A stretch of 63,815 bases of DNA, the filler included, from Collodictyon triciliatum (taxonomy: Eukaryota): NCBI GenBank assembly GCA_043381765.1. It is 24 parts of 24 records of this genome, joined end to end, with 100 filler letters (N's around TTAATTAATTAA, not from the genome) between each part and the next. Parts side by side here need not be neighbours in the genome. Positions count along the whole stretch, not along the records: positions 54,482 to 57,171 come from JBHJMP010008577.1; 23 more parts are not named here. One strand, 5' to 3'. Of this stretch, positions 20,580 through 59,347 are shown piece by piece; positions within the stretch are counted from its first letter, which is position 1, and each line of letters starts with the position of its first letter. A program made the position numbers and the translations under genes. The notes below the pieces were generated by a model, which did no database searches, was not told the DNA's origin, and worked only from the letters and a program-made list of their open reading frames with translations.

Positions 20580-21674
20580 CTATGATAAGGAGACGGTTTA
20601 ATTCTATGTTCCCATATTTTGCCTTCCTTCTCTGACATCTTTCAAAAAATCACCGAAGAGAAAAACGTAGTGCTCTATCATTTGGTGCATTCGTCTACAT
20701 GAGCACTCTGGAGTGCAATATTCTATCTTCATTCAATTGCAGAAGTCTCTTCATACTTCCTCGCTCCTCGTATCTGAGTTCTAATTAAAATGGATGTCAC
20801 TGATTTGATCTATGTTTGTTGCTGATTGGTTTAATTGTATTGTCATAAATCTATACTAAAAATTTGCAAAAGAAAAGTTTGTAACTTTATGGACGACATG
20901 CACAAAACCTTGCTTGAGGAAGGCTCTGTGATTTTTTTTTCTTTTTCGAGAATGAAGCTCGATTGAAGTATTTTTTTTTTAATTATTTGTTGCCAATAGT
21001 GTATTGCTAATTTTTTTTATTTTATAACCATTCTAAAACACTAATGTTAGGATAAGGGCGCCATATAAACCAAATAACCCTAAAATGACGTGATACAAGG
21101 TTATATCAACCGCGTTGTGTTCTAATTTACGCATATAAGTCGAAAAATAAGCGTGACACACCAACGAAGGAAATATCTGTGAAAATCATAGTCGTATCGC
21201 CAGACAATCACAATGCGAATAAATGCGGTGATCACACCGAGAGACAGAGTTGAGAAGAGCAATAAAAGAAAAAGCACAATAATTAAGAAAACAAAACTCT
21301 TTTGCTGTGAAACAAGCACACTGAGAGAGAAATAAAAAAGACACATTCTCTGAAAAATAATGTAATACAATGGCTTTCTTCTTCTCTTCCAAACCCACCA
21401 CATTCTGAAACCGTAAGAAAAAACACACAAGCGATCGGAAAGAGCGATCCCGAGAAGGACGAGACCGACGCCACAGCCCCGCCCCAATGAACGCCTACTG
21501 ATCGTACGCTAACCGAGAAGGCCGACGCAGCCGACCCAGAGAGCGAAAAGGTCACTCGACCACAACCCTTTCAACACAGGTTATGCACCGAGACACACCC
21601 ATGATCAAGACGCCAGCTGCCACCGACCTGTGAGTCAACAAACTACTAATAAGACAGAGCGAGCTCTTTGAAAC

Positions 21675-21754
<80 letters not shown>

Positions 21755-51566: not shown

Positions 51567-52933
51567 GTATGTATGTATGTATGTATGTATGTATGTATGT
51601 ATGTATGTATGTATGTATGTATGTATGTATGTATGTATGTATGTATGTATGTATGTATGTATGTNNNNNNNNNNNNNNNNNNNNNNNNNNNNNNNNNNNN
51701 NNNNNNNNTTAATTAATTAANNNNNNNNNNNNNNNNNNNNNNNNNNNNNNNNNNNNNNNNNNNNAGTCACCGGCTTCACTTGCGTATGGCGGACTCCCCT
51801 GCCTGCAGGGCGAATCCTGATTCTTGCGAGGCTGCGTGGTTGTGGCAGCTTCTTTGTGAGGCATGTTCAGCTTGACCACGGGCGAAACGACGTCGGTGAG
51901 AGACTGACCGCGTGTACGGATGTGGTTGGAAAACATGCCTTCACGATACTTGTGCTCGTTGGAGTGGGTACTCTCGTTGCTGTTGAGGGTGCGCTCCCGC
52001 TTTGTTCCAGTCTGCTCCGGCGTGTGGGCGGCCGTGGAGGTGGGTCTTTGGAACACAGACNNNNNNNNNNNNNNNNNNNNNNNNNNNNNNNNNNNNNNNN
52101 NNNNNNNNNNNNNNNNNNNNNNNNNNNNNNNNNNNNNNNNNNNNNNNNNNNNNNNNNNNNNNNNNNNNNNNNNNNNNNNNNNNNNNNNNNNNNNNNNNNN
52201 NNNNNNNNNNNNNNNNNNNNNNNNNNNNNNNNNNNNNNNNNNNNNNNNNNNNNNNNNNNNNNNNNNNNNNNNNNNNNNNNNNNNNNNNNNNNNNNNNNNN
52301 NNNNNNNNNNNNNNNNNNNNNNNNNNNNNNNNNNNNNNNNNNNNNNNNNNNNNNNNNNNNNNNNNNNNNNNNNNNNNNNNNNNNNNNNNNNNNNNNNNNN
52401 NNNNNNNNNNNNNNNNNNNNNNNNNNNNNNNNNNNNNNNNNNNNNNNNNNNNNNNNNNNNNNNNNNNNNNNNNNNNNNNNNNNNNNNNNNNNNNNNNNNN
52501 NNNNNNNNNNNNNNNNNNNNNNNNNNNNNNNNNNNNNNNNNNNNNNNNNNNNNNNNNNNNNNNNNNNNNNNNNNNNNNNNNNNNNNNNNNNNNNNNNNNN
52601 NNNNNNNNNNNNNNNNNNNNNNNNNNNNNNNNNNNNNNNNNNNNNNNNNNNNNNNNNNNNNNNNNNNNNNNNNNNNNNNNNNNNNNNNNNNCCTTCTCCT
52701 GCAGCCCCGCTGCTCGCTCCACCGGTCGCGTCCGGTAGTGCTCGTAGACCACACTCTCGTTGTCAAAGTTGAGGCTTGGTTGCTATTCGTGTAGTTTTTG
52801 TGCAAAATCAAAGGGCTACTTTGTGTGTTTGTTTGCCCAATGAGCACATTTTGAGAGTCAGTAGATGCTTAATTTTTATCTTAATTGATTTTGTGCAGTT
52901 TTTTTTTATTTTTTTTAAATTAAATTGACTATG

Positions 52934-52976
52934 TGTCGAAATTGAAACTATATATTATGGAGTTTCAATTTCGACA
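52934..52976. promoter_or_regulatory. Perfect 16-bp inverted repeat containing an AAATTGA motif
   Basis: TGTCGAAATTGAAACT / 11 nt / AGTTTCAATTTCGACA. The core TCGAAATTGAAAC recurs at 53435-53447. Regulatory role is inferred. Confidence 0.55.
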
Positions 52977-53483
52977 GCGTTCTTCTCAACCCGCCAAATT
53001 AAGCGCTTTATATACTGTCTCGCCCCTTGACCACAGAACATTACACCCTTAATTAACGAATACCTTCCATATGCGGCCGCCTTCCAACCTCAATCACCGG
53101 ACACCTTCCATATATATCCATCTTCCACCCTCACCCATGGAGTATTGATTGTCTATGCTAGTATGTGTTTTGTGACTTGTCTATGCTTGTATAAATGCAG
53201 GATATTTTCTCCACCCCCGCGCTGCCAACTTAGATACGCATATGCGTCCTGTATGTAGCGTAGTCTTTCTTGTATCAATGGTTTGCGCTCACGCTTGGAT
53301 CCGTTTTTTATGATATCACGTTTAGATTCTTCACCCCGTTCTATTGGAAGAGTTGTATCCTCATAAGTCTTCTTGTTCTTTTGTACTTCTTTACGATTCC
53401 CTCGACCCACCATACTCTACGCAACATATTCAAATCGAAATTGAAACGCGTTTGTTTAAAAAAATCATTATCATTTATTCAGT

Positions 53484-54065
53484 ATGCCGCCCCGCAAGTA
53501 TGTCCGCAAAACCCCCAGCGAAGACGACGCCAAGAAACCCAAGACCAAGACTGCCTTGCCTACCGACGACAAAGATTACACAAAAGTTCAATACAGTGAC
53601 CTCAAGAAAGGTGACTACATTATGTACGAGATGAAAGCTCGCACGTACAAAGACAAGGAATACCCAGCCAAAGTCAACCAAGGGTTTGTGTCTCTGATTC
53701 AGAATGAAGTCGGAGACGCTCTGTGGAAAGACCAAGACGGAAAAGTTCTGGGCATGACGAACTATGGCAAGTCATGGACAAACAACACAAAGGACATCGG
53801 CGACATTTACAGACAGAGTGATGAAGCTAACAAAGCCAAGCGAGAGAAAGGATTGAAAAAACATATGGACAATGCTCCTGCCCGTGCAGAGAAACGCAAG
53901 GTTGTAGCTAAGGTCGAAAAGATGCTTCAAGAAGAAGACAAGGACGAGGCGCAGAAGAGAGAGCAGAAGCCAGTCGAGCTTGTAGCCCTGGCCAAGGAGA
54001 TCAGTACTGAGATTAAAAAATCTAAGAAGCCTGCGAAGAAACCACGGTCATCTTCCGACGCTTGA
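53484..54065 (+). CDS. Hypothetical Lys-rich protein, 193 aa, intronless (possibly viral)
   Basis: Strong coding-like composition; a small SH3/Tudor-like-looking core (DLKKGDYIMY) between basic tails. Confidence 0.75.
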   Translation: MPPRKYVRKTPSEDDAKKPKTKTALPTDDKDYTKVQYSDLKKGDYIMYEMKARTYKDKEYPAKVNQGFVSLIQNEVGDALWKDQDGKVLGMTNYGKSWTNNTKDIGDIYRQSDEANKAKREKGLKKHMDNAPARAEKRKVVAKVEKMLQEEDKDEAQKREQKPVELVALAKEISTEIKKSKKPAKKPRSSSDA

Positions 54066-54381
54066 TCGGTTTGATTGGCTCCACGGTTATCGGTTTGCTT
54101 ACAGCTACCTCTTCCATAGGCTGCACCTGCAATAAAGCGCCTAAAATTCTTTTCAACTTATTAAAGTTTTTAGTTTGAAGCGTAGTCATTTTAGGGTTGT
54201 CTCCGTGCTTAGAAACAAACGCTTCATATGCTTCCTTGACTTTCGGTTCTAGCCTATCAAGCTCAGCTTGACGCCCTGGCTTGCTCGGAGCATTCTTGCC
54301 AGTGCGGTTTGTGAAATTTTTAGTGTCCGCTGTCCACACTTTCTTATCAAAGTCGGCGCGGGCATCCTGCACGTTCGAAGC
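54022..54381 (-). CDS. Hypothetical protein, 3' part, overlapping the convergent ORF by 44 nt
   Basis: Frame is open to the contig edge; intronless. Confidence 0.65.
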   Translation of the reverse strand, partial: ASNVQDARADFDKKVWTADTKNFTNRTGKNAPSKPGRQAELDRLEPKVKEAYEAFVSKHGDNPKMTTLQTKNFNKLKRILGALLQVQPMEEVAVSKPITVEPIKPIKRRKMTVVSSQAS

Positions 54382-54482
54382 NNNNNNNNNNNNNNNNNNN
54401 NNNNNNNNNNNNNNNNNNNNNNNNNTTAATTAATTAANNNNNNNNNNNNNNNNNNNNNNNNNNNNNNNNNNNNNNNNNNNNA

Positions 54483-55009
54483 CATAATTCATGCACGGTC
54501 GATTATGAACAATTTCGAAAATATGTGTCTATGAAATCAAGATACCAGATAGAATTATCCACATTTTATGAACAAGTAACTTTTTGAAAGATGAGATGGA
54601 GACAGTATGTTAATACAAAAAGAAGTGAACAGTTGTTTATGAACTGAATCGATAAGGCATTTGGCAAGGATTTTGTACTGGCGTATGGAGACTGGAGCAG
54701 AAAATCCCCGATGAACCATTTTATGCCAACAATCGGAAGAGGATTACGAAAAATGCTATCCAAACGTTTTGAAACAGTTAGTGCAGATGAATTTAGAACC
54801 TCCAAGATGTGCTGCAACTGCGAAAAAGAACTGGAATATGTAACACTGAAAGGGAGTTCAAAAAAGTGTATAGATATCTGGTATGTAAAGAATGCAATCG
54901 CTCAGAAAGCAAACGAACTGTATTCTTGACAAGGGAGTTTAACAGCGCTCAAAATATACTCAAGAAGGTTCTTTTAATCCTTCAAAAAAATGCATGCACC
55001 TTCCTTTAA
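54483..55009 (+). pseudogene. Fanzor1 (eukaryotic TnpB-like RNA-guided RuvC nuclease), C-terminal half, inactivated
   Basis: TFYEQVTF*KMRWRQY..LFMN*I..LAYGDWS..MPTIGRGLRKML..ADEFRTSKMCCNC [frameshift ~54855-54866] YLVCKEC..TREFNSAQNI. Shows the GDWS, DExxTS, two CxxC and RDxNxAxNI-type motifs. Stops at 54585 and 54645. Confidence 0.88.
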
Positions 55010-55015
55010 AAAAAC

Positions 55016-55137
55016 AGGCTGTCGGGTCTTTCCTGGCAGCCTTCACTACTACACAATCTTTGTGAAAAAAATGGTGAGACCTTGGATACTAGCGCACCAG
55101 GTTAACCAATCGAAAGATGGTATGTCCCTTCTAGTAT
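55016..55137 (+). ncRNA. Putative Fanzor omegaRNA scaffold / element right end
   Basis: Four consecutive hairpins start 6 nt after the ORF stop. The loop ATACTAG (55086-55092) is complementary to CTAGTAT (55131-55137). Confidence 0.65.
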
Positions 55138-55299
55138 AACATAAACGATTGATATGAATGCTCAATTTCATTGATAATAACTAACAATACAAGAATCTCA
55201 TGCAAATAAGAAGTGATTCGTGGAATTAAACCCTCTTCCTTTTCTTGAATCGAATAAAGGGAAAAAAGGAATGGCTCATGGACGAGATAATGGAACCTC

Positions 55300-56787
55300 C
55301 TTCCTCGCCCCAGATTGTGTGGTTGGAGTTTTTGTTTTGGGTGGAAAGAAAAAGAAAAAGAAAAAGAAAAAGCAAGATAGAAAGGAGAGAAAATTTCTCA
55401 CACGCAGCCTATTCTACCCGAGGTGATTCAGCTCCAACGCGATTTCTGGTTGTATTCGAGACTGACAGAAGAGCGGATAAAGTTGTCGGGTCGATGAAAG
55501 TACGCACATGGCAGTTACTTCTCAAATCGATTCCGACGAGTCCTTTCAACCGTCTATCTCAGACAGGGTTTACATCCTATTTCATTCCACAGGATGAGTC
55601 TTTTGAGGGGACAACGGGTCAATTTCCTTGCGTTTCTTGCTGGGAGATTCAGACAGAAAGCGATACATCATTGTTTCTCTGGTATTATCGGAAGTGGCGC
55701 TTGACCGTCCCCTGGCATCGGGACCATGCGTAGTAAGCAGTGGACTTTGCTTAACCGGAGTATGGATACGCGTTTGTGGTTTTAGAAACATACGCTCCTG
55801 CTTGCTCGGACTGTTTTTGGTGTGTGAAGTTCCAAGCTTGGATTCGGCTTGTGCTGATTGCTCTTGCTCCTTGGTTCTCGGTGCGACGGGCTGGGAAGAG
55901 TAAACGGACTATCTTTGGTGGGCGCTGGTTCTTGTGTTGCCTTCGATTTGGAGTATCCTTTCGGATAAGTAACGAAGACTGCCTTGATGTCTCCTGTGTT
56001 GACCATATTCACATCAGTCTGAATGGGTAGTTTAAGGGGGTATTTCTTTCGGGGTTTGGAGATGTGCTGCTCTTGGGTCTTGCGATGTGCGTGCTTGCCC
56101 GGTGTTGGCGGTGGAGGGCTCGAGTGCGAGGATTCTGAAGAGGAACCGAGATTTCCTTCTATGTCATCGTCGCTGTCGCTGTATGCGCGTATCTGCTGTG
56201 AGTCTTGCGGACTCAGTTGTTGCCTGGCCTTGGCTTCCTTGACCCGTTTCTGCTTGTCTGCTTGGCGGGTGTATTCTTTTGCGGGGCTTTTACTTGTCGT
56301 TTGTTGTTTGCGGCTGGCGGACGCTCTTTGAGGATGCGCTTTGGACACTTTTTGCCCATAACCGTAAACTTTGCAGGAAGCTGGTTCTTTTGACAAAGAA
56401 GCTTCACCACGGACGTGTCTGTGAAGGAGCCTTCGTCTTTTTTTATCTCCACGTGGGTCGGTCTGAACGGCTTCAGCTCCTCACGAAGGAGTTGCGGCCA
56501 TACGTCCAGCGGTAGTTGGTAGATCATCACCGAGGTCTCTGTTGGTTTACTTCTGCTGAAGCTGATCATAATATCAATCAGACCTACCTGCTTCAGTTCC
56601 AGAAGCTTTCGGGCGTTATCTGCGGTGCGGAAGGCGATCAGGAAAAGGCCTTTTCTGTCCGGTAAGCGCAATTGGATGGACTCTTCCCAAAGTTTGTTCG
56701 CTTTCAAGAAGGAGGCGAGCACATCTGTGAGCCTGCGGGCCTTGTTCTTGTTGTAGACGAATAACTCGACATTATGCAGGCGGCTTT
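55300..56787 (-). mobile_element. Dispersed repeat X, copy 3 (5'-truncated)
   Basis: Aligns to 33395-34905. Similarity stops abruptly at ~56787, with a short internal deletion between TGCA microhomologies near 56775. Confidence 0.85.
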
Positions 56788-59347
56788 ATAGATTTATCTT
56801 CGACTCATGTCTTTCACCACACACTGAGATTTGGAGATAAATAATCTGGTGTCTTAAAAGATTATTGGCTGTAATGAATTCCAGCGCAATTAAAATGCTT
56901 AATAATATTTGTAAGAACCTACTATACATAGAATCCTATCTGTAGTATGATAACGATAATTGTTATCAATATATTAAGATTCCATATATGTATAATTCAA
57001 CCGTTCCCAAATGTGGACATTATTCAATGTATTATCCCTCTTCCAAATGAACCACACGACACATGCTACAAATCAAAAACAAAAGCAAAAACAAAAGCAA
57101 AAACAAAAACAAAAACAAAAACAAAAACAAAAACAAAAACAAAAACAAAAACAAAAACAAAAACAAAAACANNNNNNNNNNNNNNNNNNNNNNNNNNNNN
57201 NNNNNNNNNNNNNNNTTAATTAATTAANNNNNNNNNNNNNNNNNNNNNNNNNNNNNNNNNNNNNNNNNNNNATTTTGGTTTTTGGTTTGTTTTTCCTTAT
57301 GTTTTTTTTATCAACCAGCGCTGGCTGACGACAAGAAAGAGCGGGAAACTTCCGTTTGAATCAGTGGTGACATTTTCATGTTTTATTTGATATCGCGCCA
57401 GTTAATGCAGCATCTTTAGTCCCGCAGGATGTGTACTGTAGAACGCATTCACCAGTTTTCGGTTGCAAAGGACGCACACAGTCGCATCTTTGATTGTGAT
57501 ATATTTATTTATATTTGTATAAACTAAAAATTATGAAAGATTTTTGTATTACAACATCTTTCGTATTGGTATCACTTCCTTTTGAGGCGTATTTATGTTA
57601 TTTTGTGAATGGGTAAATGAGTTGAAGAAGGTACTTTGTGGGTTGGTGTCACGGTGGATGTTTGCATTGGATTCATGCACACCACTTCACAAACTCGCAA
57701 GGCACTAGCATGCAATATTATTTCGAATAAACTTTTGACACGAGTGCGCTCATTTCAATTATTTTGCATCTTCCATCTGCAACCGCTCCATCTTCATACA
57801 TGGTGCACATGAATTTCAAGTGCTTATCGGCATTTATCACTACATTGTTGTCTCCTTGCTGTTTATTGAAGCTTTCTTTTGGAGTCATCTGAATTTCACA
57901 AGAACGAAACACTTGGCATATAATTAAGTGCGTATTCCAATAGATTCTCAAATAGCTGTTCTGCAACTATTTAATGCAACGCCGCAGAAGGAAAACGAAT
58001 TATTTGGCACCGGTCAACTTTTCACTTTTCTTTTTATATCAGGAAATTGTAATTAAAGGATTGAGCCAAGAAAATCTTCCCGTCCCTTTAGAAGATAAGA
58101 GTAATTTGCATTAATCATTTATTCATCCATTATAAATTTTTCATAATATATATATCTAAGTTGCAAATAAATTCATTCTCACTTATAAGCATTTATGTTT
58201 TTATATTGTTTTTCTTACTCATATGGCCGTATTTTCCATGACTTGTCATCAAGCTCTCAATCATGCCAAAATTACGCCCGACTGAAAAATCCCCAAGCTT
58301 AATTTTCATCTTTCTATCAGATAGCATGTTCGAAGAGACCAAAGACCTCAGGTAATGCGTGATACCGCTCTACTTCATTTATGTCGAGCCATAACAAATA
58401 TTACAAAATTGGGAGGGCTGCTACTCCCTTGATGATATTCGCCAATAAATTTCTAATGTATATATATATATATATATTAAAGGTTATTAGTCGTGTGCAC
58501 TAAAATTTTCCTTATCAAATTTGTTTCCTTCATATCAATCATGCCTCAACAAAGCCCTTATCCTCGCATCCAGGATGCTCTATGCTGCTCTAGGTATTTT
58601 TTTTTTATTTCAATACGGATTTCCTTGTTATACCCTCCTGTTCACTATATCCACACAATGATGCTCAACCCCGTCCTCAGATTTCACACGCCATTCACCA
58701 GCTATATCGACTTTACTTTTGTGTAATGGCAAATCTTCTGCACTTATTATTTTAACTATTATTGGCCCAAGTGAAGGAAACCATGAAGCCACGCAACATT
58801 TTACATCAGGAGTTGTGTGATAAACTCCGTCTTTATTTTTTGGGGTTGGTGACAAATCCTATAAAAGAGAGACTTAGAGTTTCAGTTCGGTGGGTGTTAA
58901 GAAAGGATGCAACATCGACAAGGAAAAGCTGCTCCTCGTTCTCAAGGTGCTTTGTTTTGATGCCCAGTGGTCCGTAAAATGAGATGTTTTTTGTTTTTAT
59001 ATTTTTATTTGAAATAGCGACTTAAGCATAGTGCCTTGATTGTTTTTTGTTTTTTGTTTTTTGTTTTCTATTAGCAAATCGATGTCAGCTGAGCTTTGTG
59101 TGATTTTGTTGCACAGGACATCGAGTCGTTGCCTCTATCCCACAAGCAGATCTTGCAAGAGCACACTTGTTTTATCAAAACAATATGCCGTGAAGCATAG
59201 AGCCGGCTCGTTGGTTATGATGGCGATAATAAAGGATGCAGAGTATGAAAAAGCATGAAAAAGTAAAAAGAAAAAACACGAAAAGAGTAGGAAGCAATAG
59301 AGTATATGGATTATGTACCATGTGATTTCCTAGTTCCATAGGTGAGC

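What the first reader, a model, noticed from the sequence alone, without database searches (positions are those of the whole stretch)
54483..55140. Fanzor1 relic with a readable omegaRNA: four hairpins plus a 7-bp pseudoknot at the element end
Seen after the Fanzor ORF stop (55009): stem 1 AGGCTGTCGGG/CCTGGCAGCCT (55016-55042, 11 bp with 2 G-U); stem 2 TCACTA/TGGTGA enclosing CACAA/TTGTG (55043-55077); stem 3 GACC-TGG/CCA-GGTT (55078-55103); stem 4 ACC-ATC[GAAA]GAT-GGT (55105-55121). The stem 3 loop ATACTAG pairs with CTAGTAT (55131-55137). Known: TnpB/Fanzor guide RNAs are encoded at the element's right end, fold with a terminal pseudoknot and take their spacer from flanking DNA. Inference: this is the scaffold of an RNA-guided nuclease family in this protist, with the guide starting near 55135-55138. 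This copy is dead (two stops, a frameshift, RD>RE), but intact siblings may exist.
Basis: partly seen in the sequence, partly recalled or inferred. Interest (0 to 1): 0.8.

Follow-up and report, generated by a model that had tools for sequence, protein, structure and literature searches.

The report
Dead Fanzor guide-RNA recoded for Helitron
This is the broken tail of one of well over a hundred decayed copies of a rolling-circle jumping gene (Helitron) that carried an RNA-guided DNA cutter (Fanzor1); the tail likely encoded the cutter's guide RNA, and its last helix was probably rewritten to fit the new carrier's end rather than forming the proposed 7-bp pseudoknot.

Summary
The stems are real, and conservation across 81 distinct copies ends at CTAG|T (55131-55135). 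The protein is Fanzor1: a sibling frame hits only the three solved Fanzor1 structures. None of 44 whole-gene copies is intact. The carrier is a canonical Helitron: hairpin, ~9 nt, CTAG, then T in 54 of 57 copies. Its 5' end shares a 17-mer with a Helitron family derived from a RepHel element in this genome. The 7-bp pseudoknot is copy-specific; only ACTAG/CTAGT (5 bp) is constant. In intact relatives from metagenome and giant-virus contigs, stem 2 covaries, and a nested terminal helix TTTAC/GTAAA sits in the same register as ACTAG/CTAGT. So this pairing is best read as the normal Fanzor1 terminal stem, recoded to the Helitron end plus the target T, with the guide starting at 55136. A pseudoknot needs stem 3, which relatives lack and which only ties the nested fold in energy. 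Published Fanzor1 RNAs lack a pseudoknot. The family's stop codon lies at 55063-65, inside the scaffold. No RNA evidence was found. The scan reported this family before on other contigs. Verdict: new variant of a known kind, a fossil.

The parts
54482..55065 (+). 3' part of a broken Fanzor1 gene, cut at the contig start; the family reading frame ends at TGA 55063-55065
   Evidence: 54% and 44% identity to intact relative P0001 in two frames
54585..54587 (+). premature TGA
54645..54647 (+). premature TGA
54789..54821 (+). RuvC-II glutamate with six residues between it and the first zinc-finger CxxC (Fanzor 'Ealt' signature)
   Evidence: definition in PMC10711439
54932..54937 (+). RuvC-III RD motif, read RE in this copy only
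   Evidence: 1 of 75 copies
55016..55042 (+). stem-loop 1 of the predicted omegaRNA (11 bp, 2 G-U); overlaps the coding end
   Evidence: 94% of cells paired; a hairpin in the same position in the closest relatives
55043..55077 (+). stem 2 with bulged A, inner stem and A-rich bulge; covaries in relatives (TCACC/GGTGA vs TGACC/GGTCA, GTCTT/AAGAC)
55078..55087 (+). 10-nt spacer ending GAT (relatives: ATCAGTTGAT hairpin); 5' arm of the alternative stem 3
55088..55092 (+). ACTAG, 5' strand of the terminal helix (relatives: TTTAC)
55105..55121 (+). stem 4 = Helitron subterminal hairpin; loop inverted (GAAA to TTTC) in some copies
55131..55134 (+). CTAG, Helitron 3' terminus
   Evidence: 57 of 81 copies
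55135..55135 (+). target-site T (T in 54 of 57 copies), inferred to be the last scaffold base
   Evidence: principle in PMC10711439
55136..55150 (+). flanking DNA = inferred copy-specific guide (57 different 15-mers in 57 copies; A-rich at +7 to +12)

Best explanation
The stretch is the 3' end of a dead copy of a 3.2-3.8 kb non-autonomous canonical Helitron that carries a Fanzor1 gene, and its last ~120 nt likely encoded the Fanzor omegaRNA scaffold while also serving as the Helitron's termination signal. Shown: Helitron ends, Fanzor1 protein, many copies all broken where examined, boundary at CTAG|T. Inferred mechanism: a transcript through the end of the gene into flanking DNA would fold into SL1, stem 2 and a long hairpin. 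A nested 5-bp helix (ACTAG with CTAG plus the target T) would close the scaffold, and the flank from 55136 would be the guide. An empty A|T site would then present a TAM ending in AT followed by the guide match, so an active enzyme would cut insertion-free alleles and favour copying of the insertion by repair. The relatives sit in TA-duplicating inverted-repeat elements and close the same helix with TTTAC/GTAAA. The move to a Helitron end was probably accompanied by three paired changes in that helix. Spread was by a RepHel supplied in trans (inferred). The nuclease may already have been weak or dead during most of the burst.
For: Fanzor1: frame L021 hits only PpFz1, SpuFz1 and GtFz1 in the PDB at E<=1. 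TDG motif in 27 of 44 copies; E six residues before CxxC. Helitron: hairpin, ~9 nt, CTAG, with T next in 54 of 57. A Fanzor-less family has the same layout and head-to-tail CTAG|TC joints (4 joints). It starts with TCTATACAATAAATTTG, preceded by A in 16 of 22 non-joint cases, and is 74-79% identical to the 5' part of a contig with a 1194-aa Helitron-Rep frame. One 1.7-kb element (C2153) runs from that exact 17-mer to this tail. Full-length C4364 starts A|TCTACAGATTAAATTTG. RepHel-like DNA (72-80%) lies upstream in 5 of 6 Fanzor loci tested. RNA: a model built from 11 relatives only ranks 55007-55135 first in the 64-kb window (18.2 bits, E 0.019; next 12.9) and finds the tail in 29 of 29 sibling loci. 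In relatives the 5 nt after TTGAT pair with the terminal 5 nt fully in 72 of 123 tails and at 4 of 5 positions in 39. MAFFT aligns ACTAG on TTTAC without gaps. The family majority tail folds nested (P 0.75 vs 0.12 for stem 3). The inner CTAG is not used as an end: 17 of 17 copies with a non-C next base run on to the full end, and 127 have C.
Against: No transcript or small-RNA evidence. The model match is weak: 11 of 29 sibling loci at E<0.05, and in the two best sibling alignments shown it did not use ACTAG/CTAGT as the terminal helix, so it mainly supports the front half. The recoding is a single evolutionary event, and CTAG is a palindrome. In relatives only one pair of the terminal helix shows a two-sided change. 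In 21 natural copies the nested and stem-3 folds tie (11 vs 10). Copies show no compensatory changes among themselves, and the tail is no better conserved than the gene. dN/dS among copies is 0.7-1.0 even for shared variants. RuvC-I reads DAG in 33 of 44 copies, against DPG in 68 of 68 motif matches in stored relatives. No empty insertion site was found, and 5' ends of most older copies are degenerate.
Confidence: 0.68

Rival explanations
1. One reading: stem 3 and the 5-bp ACTAG/CTAGT helix form together as an H-type pseudoknot, so this Fanzor1 regained a TnpB-like pseudoknot next to the guide.
For: Stem 3 is more stable than shuffles of the same two segments (p about 0.03) and ties the nested fold in natural copies (stem 3 lower in 10 of 21; mean pairing probability 0.50 vs 0.33). 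The family has lost the small ATC/GAT hairpin that occupies this spacer in relatives. Five nucleotides next to the guide pairing with a loop is the TnpB/Fanzor2 pattern (PMC10711439).
Against: Stem 3 is absent in relatives. G55100>A breaks a central pair in 16 of 81 copies. Its 3' arm is also used by the extended terminal hairpin of the nested fold. Four papers state that Fanzor1 lacks the pseudoknot. ViennaRNA cannot score pseudoknots, so joint formation was not computed.
Confidence: 0.17
2. Passenger capture: a Helitron picked up a Fanzor1 gene with the front half of its RNA and replaced the back half with its own terminator. The guide RNA was broken from the start, and ACTAG/CTAGT complementarity is chance or the relic of an earlier CTAG end 11 nt after stem 2.
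For: Near-neutral dN/dS among copies. Family-wide DAG in place of DPG. The back half shares no sequence with relatives beyond GAT and TA. CTAG is self-complementary. ACTAG appears somewhere in 8.7% of shuffled 89-nt scaffolds.
Against: The pentamer sits in the exact register of the relatives' helix strand. The inner CTAG is followed by C in 127 exact matches vs T in 13, and none of 17 checked copies ends there. The majority gene is open except at one ambiguous homopolymer and keeps D, E, D and the zinc cysteines.
Confidence: 0.13
3. The carrier is not a Helitron but an inverted-repeat transposon like those of the relatives; CTAG|T is coincidental.
For: 11 of 23 relatives examined have 19-20/20 terminal inverted repeats with TA. 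Two earlier scan notes found the Helitron claim unproven.
Against: No inverted repeat between the 5' end and CTAG, and no target duplication in the two copies with both ends read. Shared 17-mer with a RepHel-derived family, and RepHel remnants upstream.
Confidence: 0.02

Closest known systems
Fanzor1-omegaRNA systems SpuFz1 (PDB 8GKH), GtFz1 (9CER), PpFz1 (9CF0); PMC10432273, PMC11423790 (passages read)
   Same: Protein family. Scaffold at the element's right end starting with an SL1, several stem-loops (GtFz1 has four), variable flank as guide, terminal bases in a double-stranded stem (PMC10711439).
   Different: Carrier has Helitron ends, not inverted repeats. Scaffold overlaps the coding end. 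SL1 is 11 bp vs 7 bp. RuvC-I reads DAG, not DPG. All examined copies are dead; no activity shown.
CRe-1/2/3 Fanzor1 elements of Chlamydomonas reinhardtii (Bao and Jurka 2013, PMC3627910, passages and one supplement table row read)
   Same: Non-autonomous Helitron-type elements carrying Fanzor1, more than 100 copies.
   Different: CRe elements are Helitron2 (asymmetric inverted repeats, insertion after TTTT, some with target duplications, multi-exon gene). This one is canonical Helitron1 (TC...hairpin-CTAG, A|T), with the gene collinear with intronless relatives.
Canonical Helitron (Helraiser/Helibat1; PMC4778049, passages read)
   Same: 5'-TC / CTAG-3' ends, hairpin ~10 nt before the end, A|T target, AT-rich bias strongest in the 3' flank, head-to-tail joints (seen in the sister family).
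   Different: No RepHel of its own (only remnants in some copies); carries a Fanzor1; terminator hairpin and CTAG likely double as RNA scaffold.
Uncharacterised Fanzor1 elements in metagenome and giant-virus contigs (e.g. P0001 / L231, L311)
   Same: About 50% identity in the nuclease region. SL1, stem 2, 10-nt spacer and terminal 5-bp helix in the same order and register.
   Different: Intact 634-aa frames with DPG. End in GGTG|TA, many with inverted repeats. Two extra hairpins in the back half.
TnpB / Fanzor2 right-end RNAs with pseudoknot (ISXfa1, ApmFz2; PMC10711439, PMC11832414, passages read)
   Same: Five terminal nucleotides pair with an upstream segment; an invariant flanking base is absorbed into the scaffold (IS607).
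   Different: Protein is not Fanzor2/TnpB by PDB search; the pairing here is nested in relatives.

Membership tests
Fanzor1 | Sequence similarity to characterised Fanzor1 rather than Fanzor2/TnpB | tested here: met
   only 9cf0, 8gkh, 9cer hit; Pfam gives only a sub-threshold TNB match
Fanzor1 | RuvC-II glutamate six residues before the zinc finger (Ealt) | tested here: met
   DEFRTSKMCCNC in this copy; the GAA codon is kept in most copies
Fanzor1 | RuvC-I DPG motif (near exclusive in Fanzors) | tested here: not met
   DAG in 33 of 44 copies, catalytic D kept; relatives DPG 68 of 68. Read as a derived one-residue change; lies outside the window's truncated copy
Fanzor1 | TDG motif in the WED domain | tested here: met
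   TDG 27 of 44, TDS 10 of 44
Fanzor1 | RuvC-III RD and C4 zinc finger | tested here: met
   RD codons AGGGAC in 53 of 75 copies; RE only here; CxxC pairs in L021
Fanzor1 | Expressed omegaRNA extending ~15 nt past the element end | tested here: inconclusive
   only contigs, two runs of guessed RNA type and one metatranscriptome with no cover of the tail
Fanzor1 | RNA-guided, TAM-dependent DNA cleavage | not testable with these tools
   no intact copy among 44
Fanzor1 omegaRNA | Structured scaffold at the right end with a sharp boundary to variable flank | tested here: met
TnpB/Fanzor2-type RNA | Terminal pseudoknot | tested here: inconclusive
   5-bp helix supported but nested in relatives; stem 3 not conserved
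Canonical Helitron (Helitron1) | 3' hairpin ~10 nt before CTRR | tested here: met
Canonical Helitron (Helitron1) | 5'-TC start | tested here: met
   C4364 and C2153; degenerate in most other copies read
Canonical Helitron (Helitron1) | Insertion between A and T with no target duplication | tested here: inconclusive
   3' T in 54 of 57; 5' A in 2 of 3 for this family and 16 of 22 for the sister family; no empty site found
Canonical Helitron (Helitron1) | RepHel in cis, or in trans for non-autonomous members | tested here: met
   1194-aa PF14214-positive frame on C6377, linked through the sister family's shared 5' end and RepHel remnants; helicase part not seen (contig ends, parts masked)
Helitron2 (CRe-type) | Asymmetric terminal inverted repeats, 5' hairpin, insertion after TTTT | tested here: not met
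   ends read are TC...CTAG|T; ATIRs looked for by eye only

The most novel reading that the evidence does not exclude
A Fanzor1 moved from TA-duplicating inverted-repeat elements of giant viruses into a canonical rolling-circle Helitron and rewrote its guide RNA so that the Helitron terminator and the target T close the scaffold. In doing so it regained a TnpB-like pseudoknot and acted as a homing nuclease for Helitron insertions at A|T sites: one 30-nt stretch serving as DNA terminator, RNA scaffold and protein-facing helix.
Probability: 0.15. Interest if true: 0.75.

Novelty: new variant of a known kind. Interest (0 to 1): 0.45.

Why it matters
Fanzor1 is thought to have spread among transposon types because its RNA can absorb new ends (PMC10711439). 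This family gives a concrete before/after pair: intact relatives close the scaffold with TTTAC/GTAAA at a TA-duplicating end, and this family with ACTAG/CTAGT at a Helitron end, in the same register. That makes the rule testable by RNA swaps on an intact natural relative. It also bears on the open question of what an RNA-guided nuclease does for a rolling-circle element (raised in PMC10432273 and PMC13565253). Its value is limited: the copies examined are dead, Fanzor-in-Helitron is known in general, and the scan has reported this family on other contigs.

Tried and rejected
Rfam scan of 54483-55600: no family for the tail; one weak RNase P match elsewhere, far below its gathering score. Pfam and NCBIfam: only sub-threshold zinc-ribbon matches. 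Covariation among sibling copies: none, as expected for neutral decay on a star-like tree; G55100A is not linked to T55126 (p = 0.54). Methylation-driven decay: CpG transitions 0.071 vs 0.043-0.059 at other C/G, too weak to claim. Empty-site search with this copy's flank: only a duplicate of the filled site on C6437. Inner CTAG as an active terminus: rejected. Closer relatives with the same tail in viral contigs: none. Sequencing runs: three small-share holders, contigs only, no information on RNA ends. The ORF at 53484-54062 lies on another contig and is unrelated. Literature: 'Fanzor'+'Helitron' 14 papers, 12 listed; 'Fanzor'+'HLE1' 0; 'Fanzor/rolling-circle/omegaRNA' 15 listed. In the passages read none describes a Fanzor on a TC...CTAG Helitron1. 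Repbase entries cited by PMC13565253, two unsearched supplement files of PMC3627910 and the data tables of PMC10530073 (no table hit) were not seen and could hold such a case. A search for Helitron hairpin-loop inversions gave nothing relevant in titles and abstracts.

Full report
Setting. The window is a string of contigs joined by N-linkers. The finding lies at the very start of contig G000:C8577 (window 54482 = base 1), so the gene is cut by the assembly and the DNA upstream in the window is unrelated. A search of the genome with 54483-55260 gave 363 candidates; the 40 scored include 39 other copies at 88-90% identity, whose alignments mostly end near window 55135. The tail alone gave 334 candidates, and one exact 16-mer of the tail matches 144 places.

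Observation. The four stems and the complementarity are at the stated coordinates, and the stretch folds better than 198 of 200 shuffles (z -2.82). Across 81 distinct copies the majority base holds 0.81-0.91 through 55131-55135, then 0.63 at 55136 and under 0.5 for the next four bases. Of the seven claimed pseudoknot pairs, five are family-wide (66-73 of 81 each); the sixth holds in 58 and the seventh in 31 of 81, from an A/T-rich flank. This copy has two premature TGAs, a frameshift near 54860, RE for RD and a further shift before 55010. The family frame runs through stem 1 into stem 2 and stops at 55063-65, so the scaffold overlaps the gene end, as in the relatives.

Protein. The sibling frame L021 matches only PpFz1, SpuFz1 and GtFz1 among solved structures. 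Its best database relative is an intact 634-aa protein, P0001 (52% over the matched stretch), which again hits only those three. Fanzor signatures as defined in PMC10711439 (passages): Ealt is met, TDG is present in 27 of 44 copies, but RuvC-I reads DAG in 33 of 44, against DPG in 68 of 68 motif matches among stored relatives. None of 44 copies spanning the whole gene is intact (longest stop-free frame 280 aa), and they are 91.6-93.9% identical to the majority. A protein search of the genome scored 70 of 1146 candidates and showed stops or split frames throughout. The tree of 75 copies is star-like (median tip 0.072). dN/dS is 0.91 for singletons and 0.70, 0.72 and 1.04 for variants shared by 2-3, 4-6 and 7 or more copies. 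So there is little sign of selection on the protein during spread.

Carrier. 57 of 81 copies end in CTAG about 9 nt after stem 4, followed by T in 54; the flank is A-rich at +7 to +12 (0.62 vs 0.38 further out). These are the hallmarks of canonical Helitrons in PMC4778049 (passages). A Fanzor-less family in the genome ends hairpin-8 nt-CTAG|T and has head-to-tail CTAG|TC joints. It begins TCTATACAATAAATTTG, after A in 16 of 22 non-joint cases, and is 74-79% identical to the 5' part of a contig with a 1194-aa Helitron-Rep frame. The Fanzor element begins with the same 17-mer in C2153, a 1.7-kb deleted copy that runs to this tail, and with a near match after A in the 3.7-kb copy C4364. Five of six Fanzor loci tested carry RepHel-like DNA upstream of the gene at 72-80%, though this lies partly in a low-complexity repeat. 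Most older 5' ends are degenerate, and no empty site was found. The Fanzor1-bearing Helitrons in PMC3627910 are Helitron2 (passages).

RNA. Within the family there is no covariation, and the tail is no better conserved than the gene, so sibling alignments cannot test the fold. I therefore used 159 loci of relatives from metagenome and viral contigs; the RD anchor was found in 157. In 11 selected relatives stem 2 and two further hairpins covary strongly (22 of 36 pairs with two-sided changes; 0 of 500 shuffles; slid controls far lower). The family's TCACC/GGTGA with bulged A and A-rich loop aligns on this stem. A covariance model of those 11 relatives ranks 55007-55135 first in the window (18.2 bits, E 0.019) and finds the tail in all 29 sibling loci given, 11 at E<0.05. 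In the two best sibling alignments it did not use ACTAG/CTAGT, so it supports mainly the front half. In relatives the five bases after TTGAT pair with the five terminal bases in 72 of 123 distinct tails fully and in 39 at four positions; one relative changes C-G to T-A. This helix is nested, and includes the TA target letters of elements of which 11 of 23 examined show terminal inverted repeats. In 12 relatives it starts exactly 10 nt after stem 2. In the family ACTAG starts 10 nt after stem 2, also after GAT, and MAFFT aligns it on TTTAC without gaps. TTTAC/GTAAA to ACTAG/CTAGT keeps two pairs and changes three on both sides (two counted by the tool; the third falls on an alignment gap and is read by eye). 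This is one event, not many.

Nested or pseudoknot. The pairing is a pseudoknot only if stem 3 forms too. Stem 3 is absent from relatives, is mildly non-random (p about 0.03), and ties the nested fold in 21 natural copies (nested lower in 11). The majority tail folds nested (P 0.75 vs 0.12). Passages in PMC10432273, PMC10711439, PMC11832414 and PMC13565253 say Fanzor1 RNAs lack the pseudoknot, and PMC10711439 says their terminal bases form a double-stranded stem and absorb the fixed target letters. The alternative that the inner CTAG is merely a second Helitron end is weakened: 17 of 17 copies with another base after it still run to the full end, and the usual next base is C, not T.

Mechanism and verdict. 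Shown: a decayed Fanzor1 on a non-autonomous canonical Helitron, ending at CTAG|T. Inferred: the last ~120 nt were the omegaRNA scaffold, closed by a 5-bp nested helix that uses the Helitron's CTAG and the target T. The guide would start at 55136, and the TAM would end in AT. Whether the nuclease helped the spread is doubtful given DAG and near-neutral dN/dS. No RNA evidence was obtained. Earlier scan notes describe the same family on other contigs; one of them suggested the front-half/back-half comparison, which I tested here. New variant of a known kind; interest 0.45.

Noticed in passing
window 55105-55121 and sibling loci (L139, L161, L157, L097, L090, L145, L443 and others): The loop of the terminal hairpin is inverted (GAAA to TTTC) in 6 of 81 copies, and in about 14 of 94 by my reading. 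The flipped copies are scattered on the tree (6 changes on the best tree, at least 2 forced), suggesting recurrent flips of a DNA hairpin during rolling-circle copying or repair.
   Followed up: partly
G000:C2153 (L443) and C6264 (L194): Two 1.4-1.7 kb copies share the same internal deletion breakpoint and keep both ends and the RNA tail but lack most of the Fanzor gene: a ghost-like subfamily.
   Followed up: partly
G000:C6377 (L084) and C2589 (L207): An open 1194-aa Helitron RepHel frame (partly masked, cut by the contig end) and a young non-autonomous derivative with head-to-tail joints; possibly a recently active Helitron.
   Followed up: partly
G000:C6437 (L165/L190): A duplicate of this insertion with the same flank, 90% identical over 2.27 kb and sister on the tree (100/95); it extends further upstream than the window's copy.
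   Followed up: partly
window 21217-21683: Pieces of the 5' part of the same Helitron family (76-84% identical).
   Followed up: no
window 52818-52931: A 120-bp piece (84%) of the DNA just upstream of the Fanzor start codon, lying on the neighbouring contig.
   Followed up: no
window 52934-54381: Another repeat family (several copies at 90-96%) with a short inverted repeat at its left part and two convergent open frames (193 aa at 53484-54062; one on the minus strand) with no Pfam match.
   Followed up: no
window 55400-56800: A further repeat with a 190-aa minus-strand frame (56213-56785), also seen next to a sibling copy (L039); no Pfam match.
   Followed up: no
P0003 and L018/L021: A ~35-aa insert between RuvC-I and the REC2 helices is shared by this family and one database fragment (P0003) but absent from the other aligned relatives.
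   Followed up: partly
L231-L389: A large, uniform group of intact Fanzor1 elements in giant-virus and metagenome contigs with a strongly covarying RNA tail and TA-flanked inverted repeats; good candidates for activity tests.
   Followed up: partly
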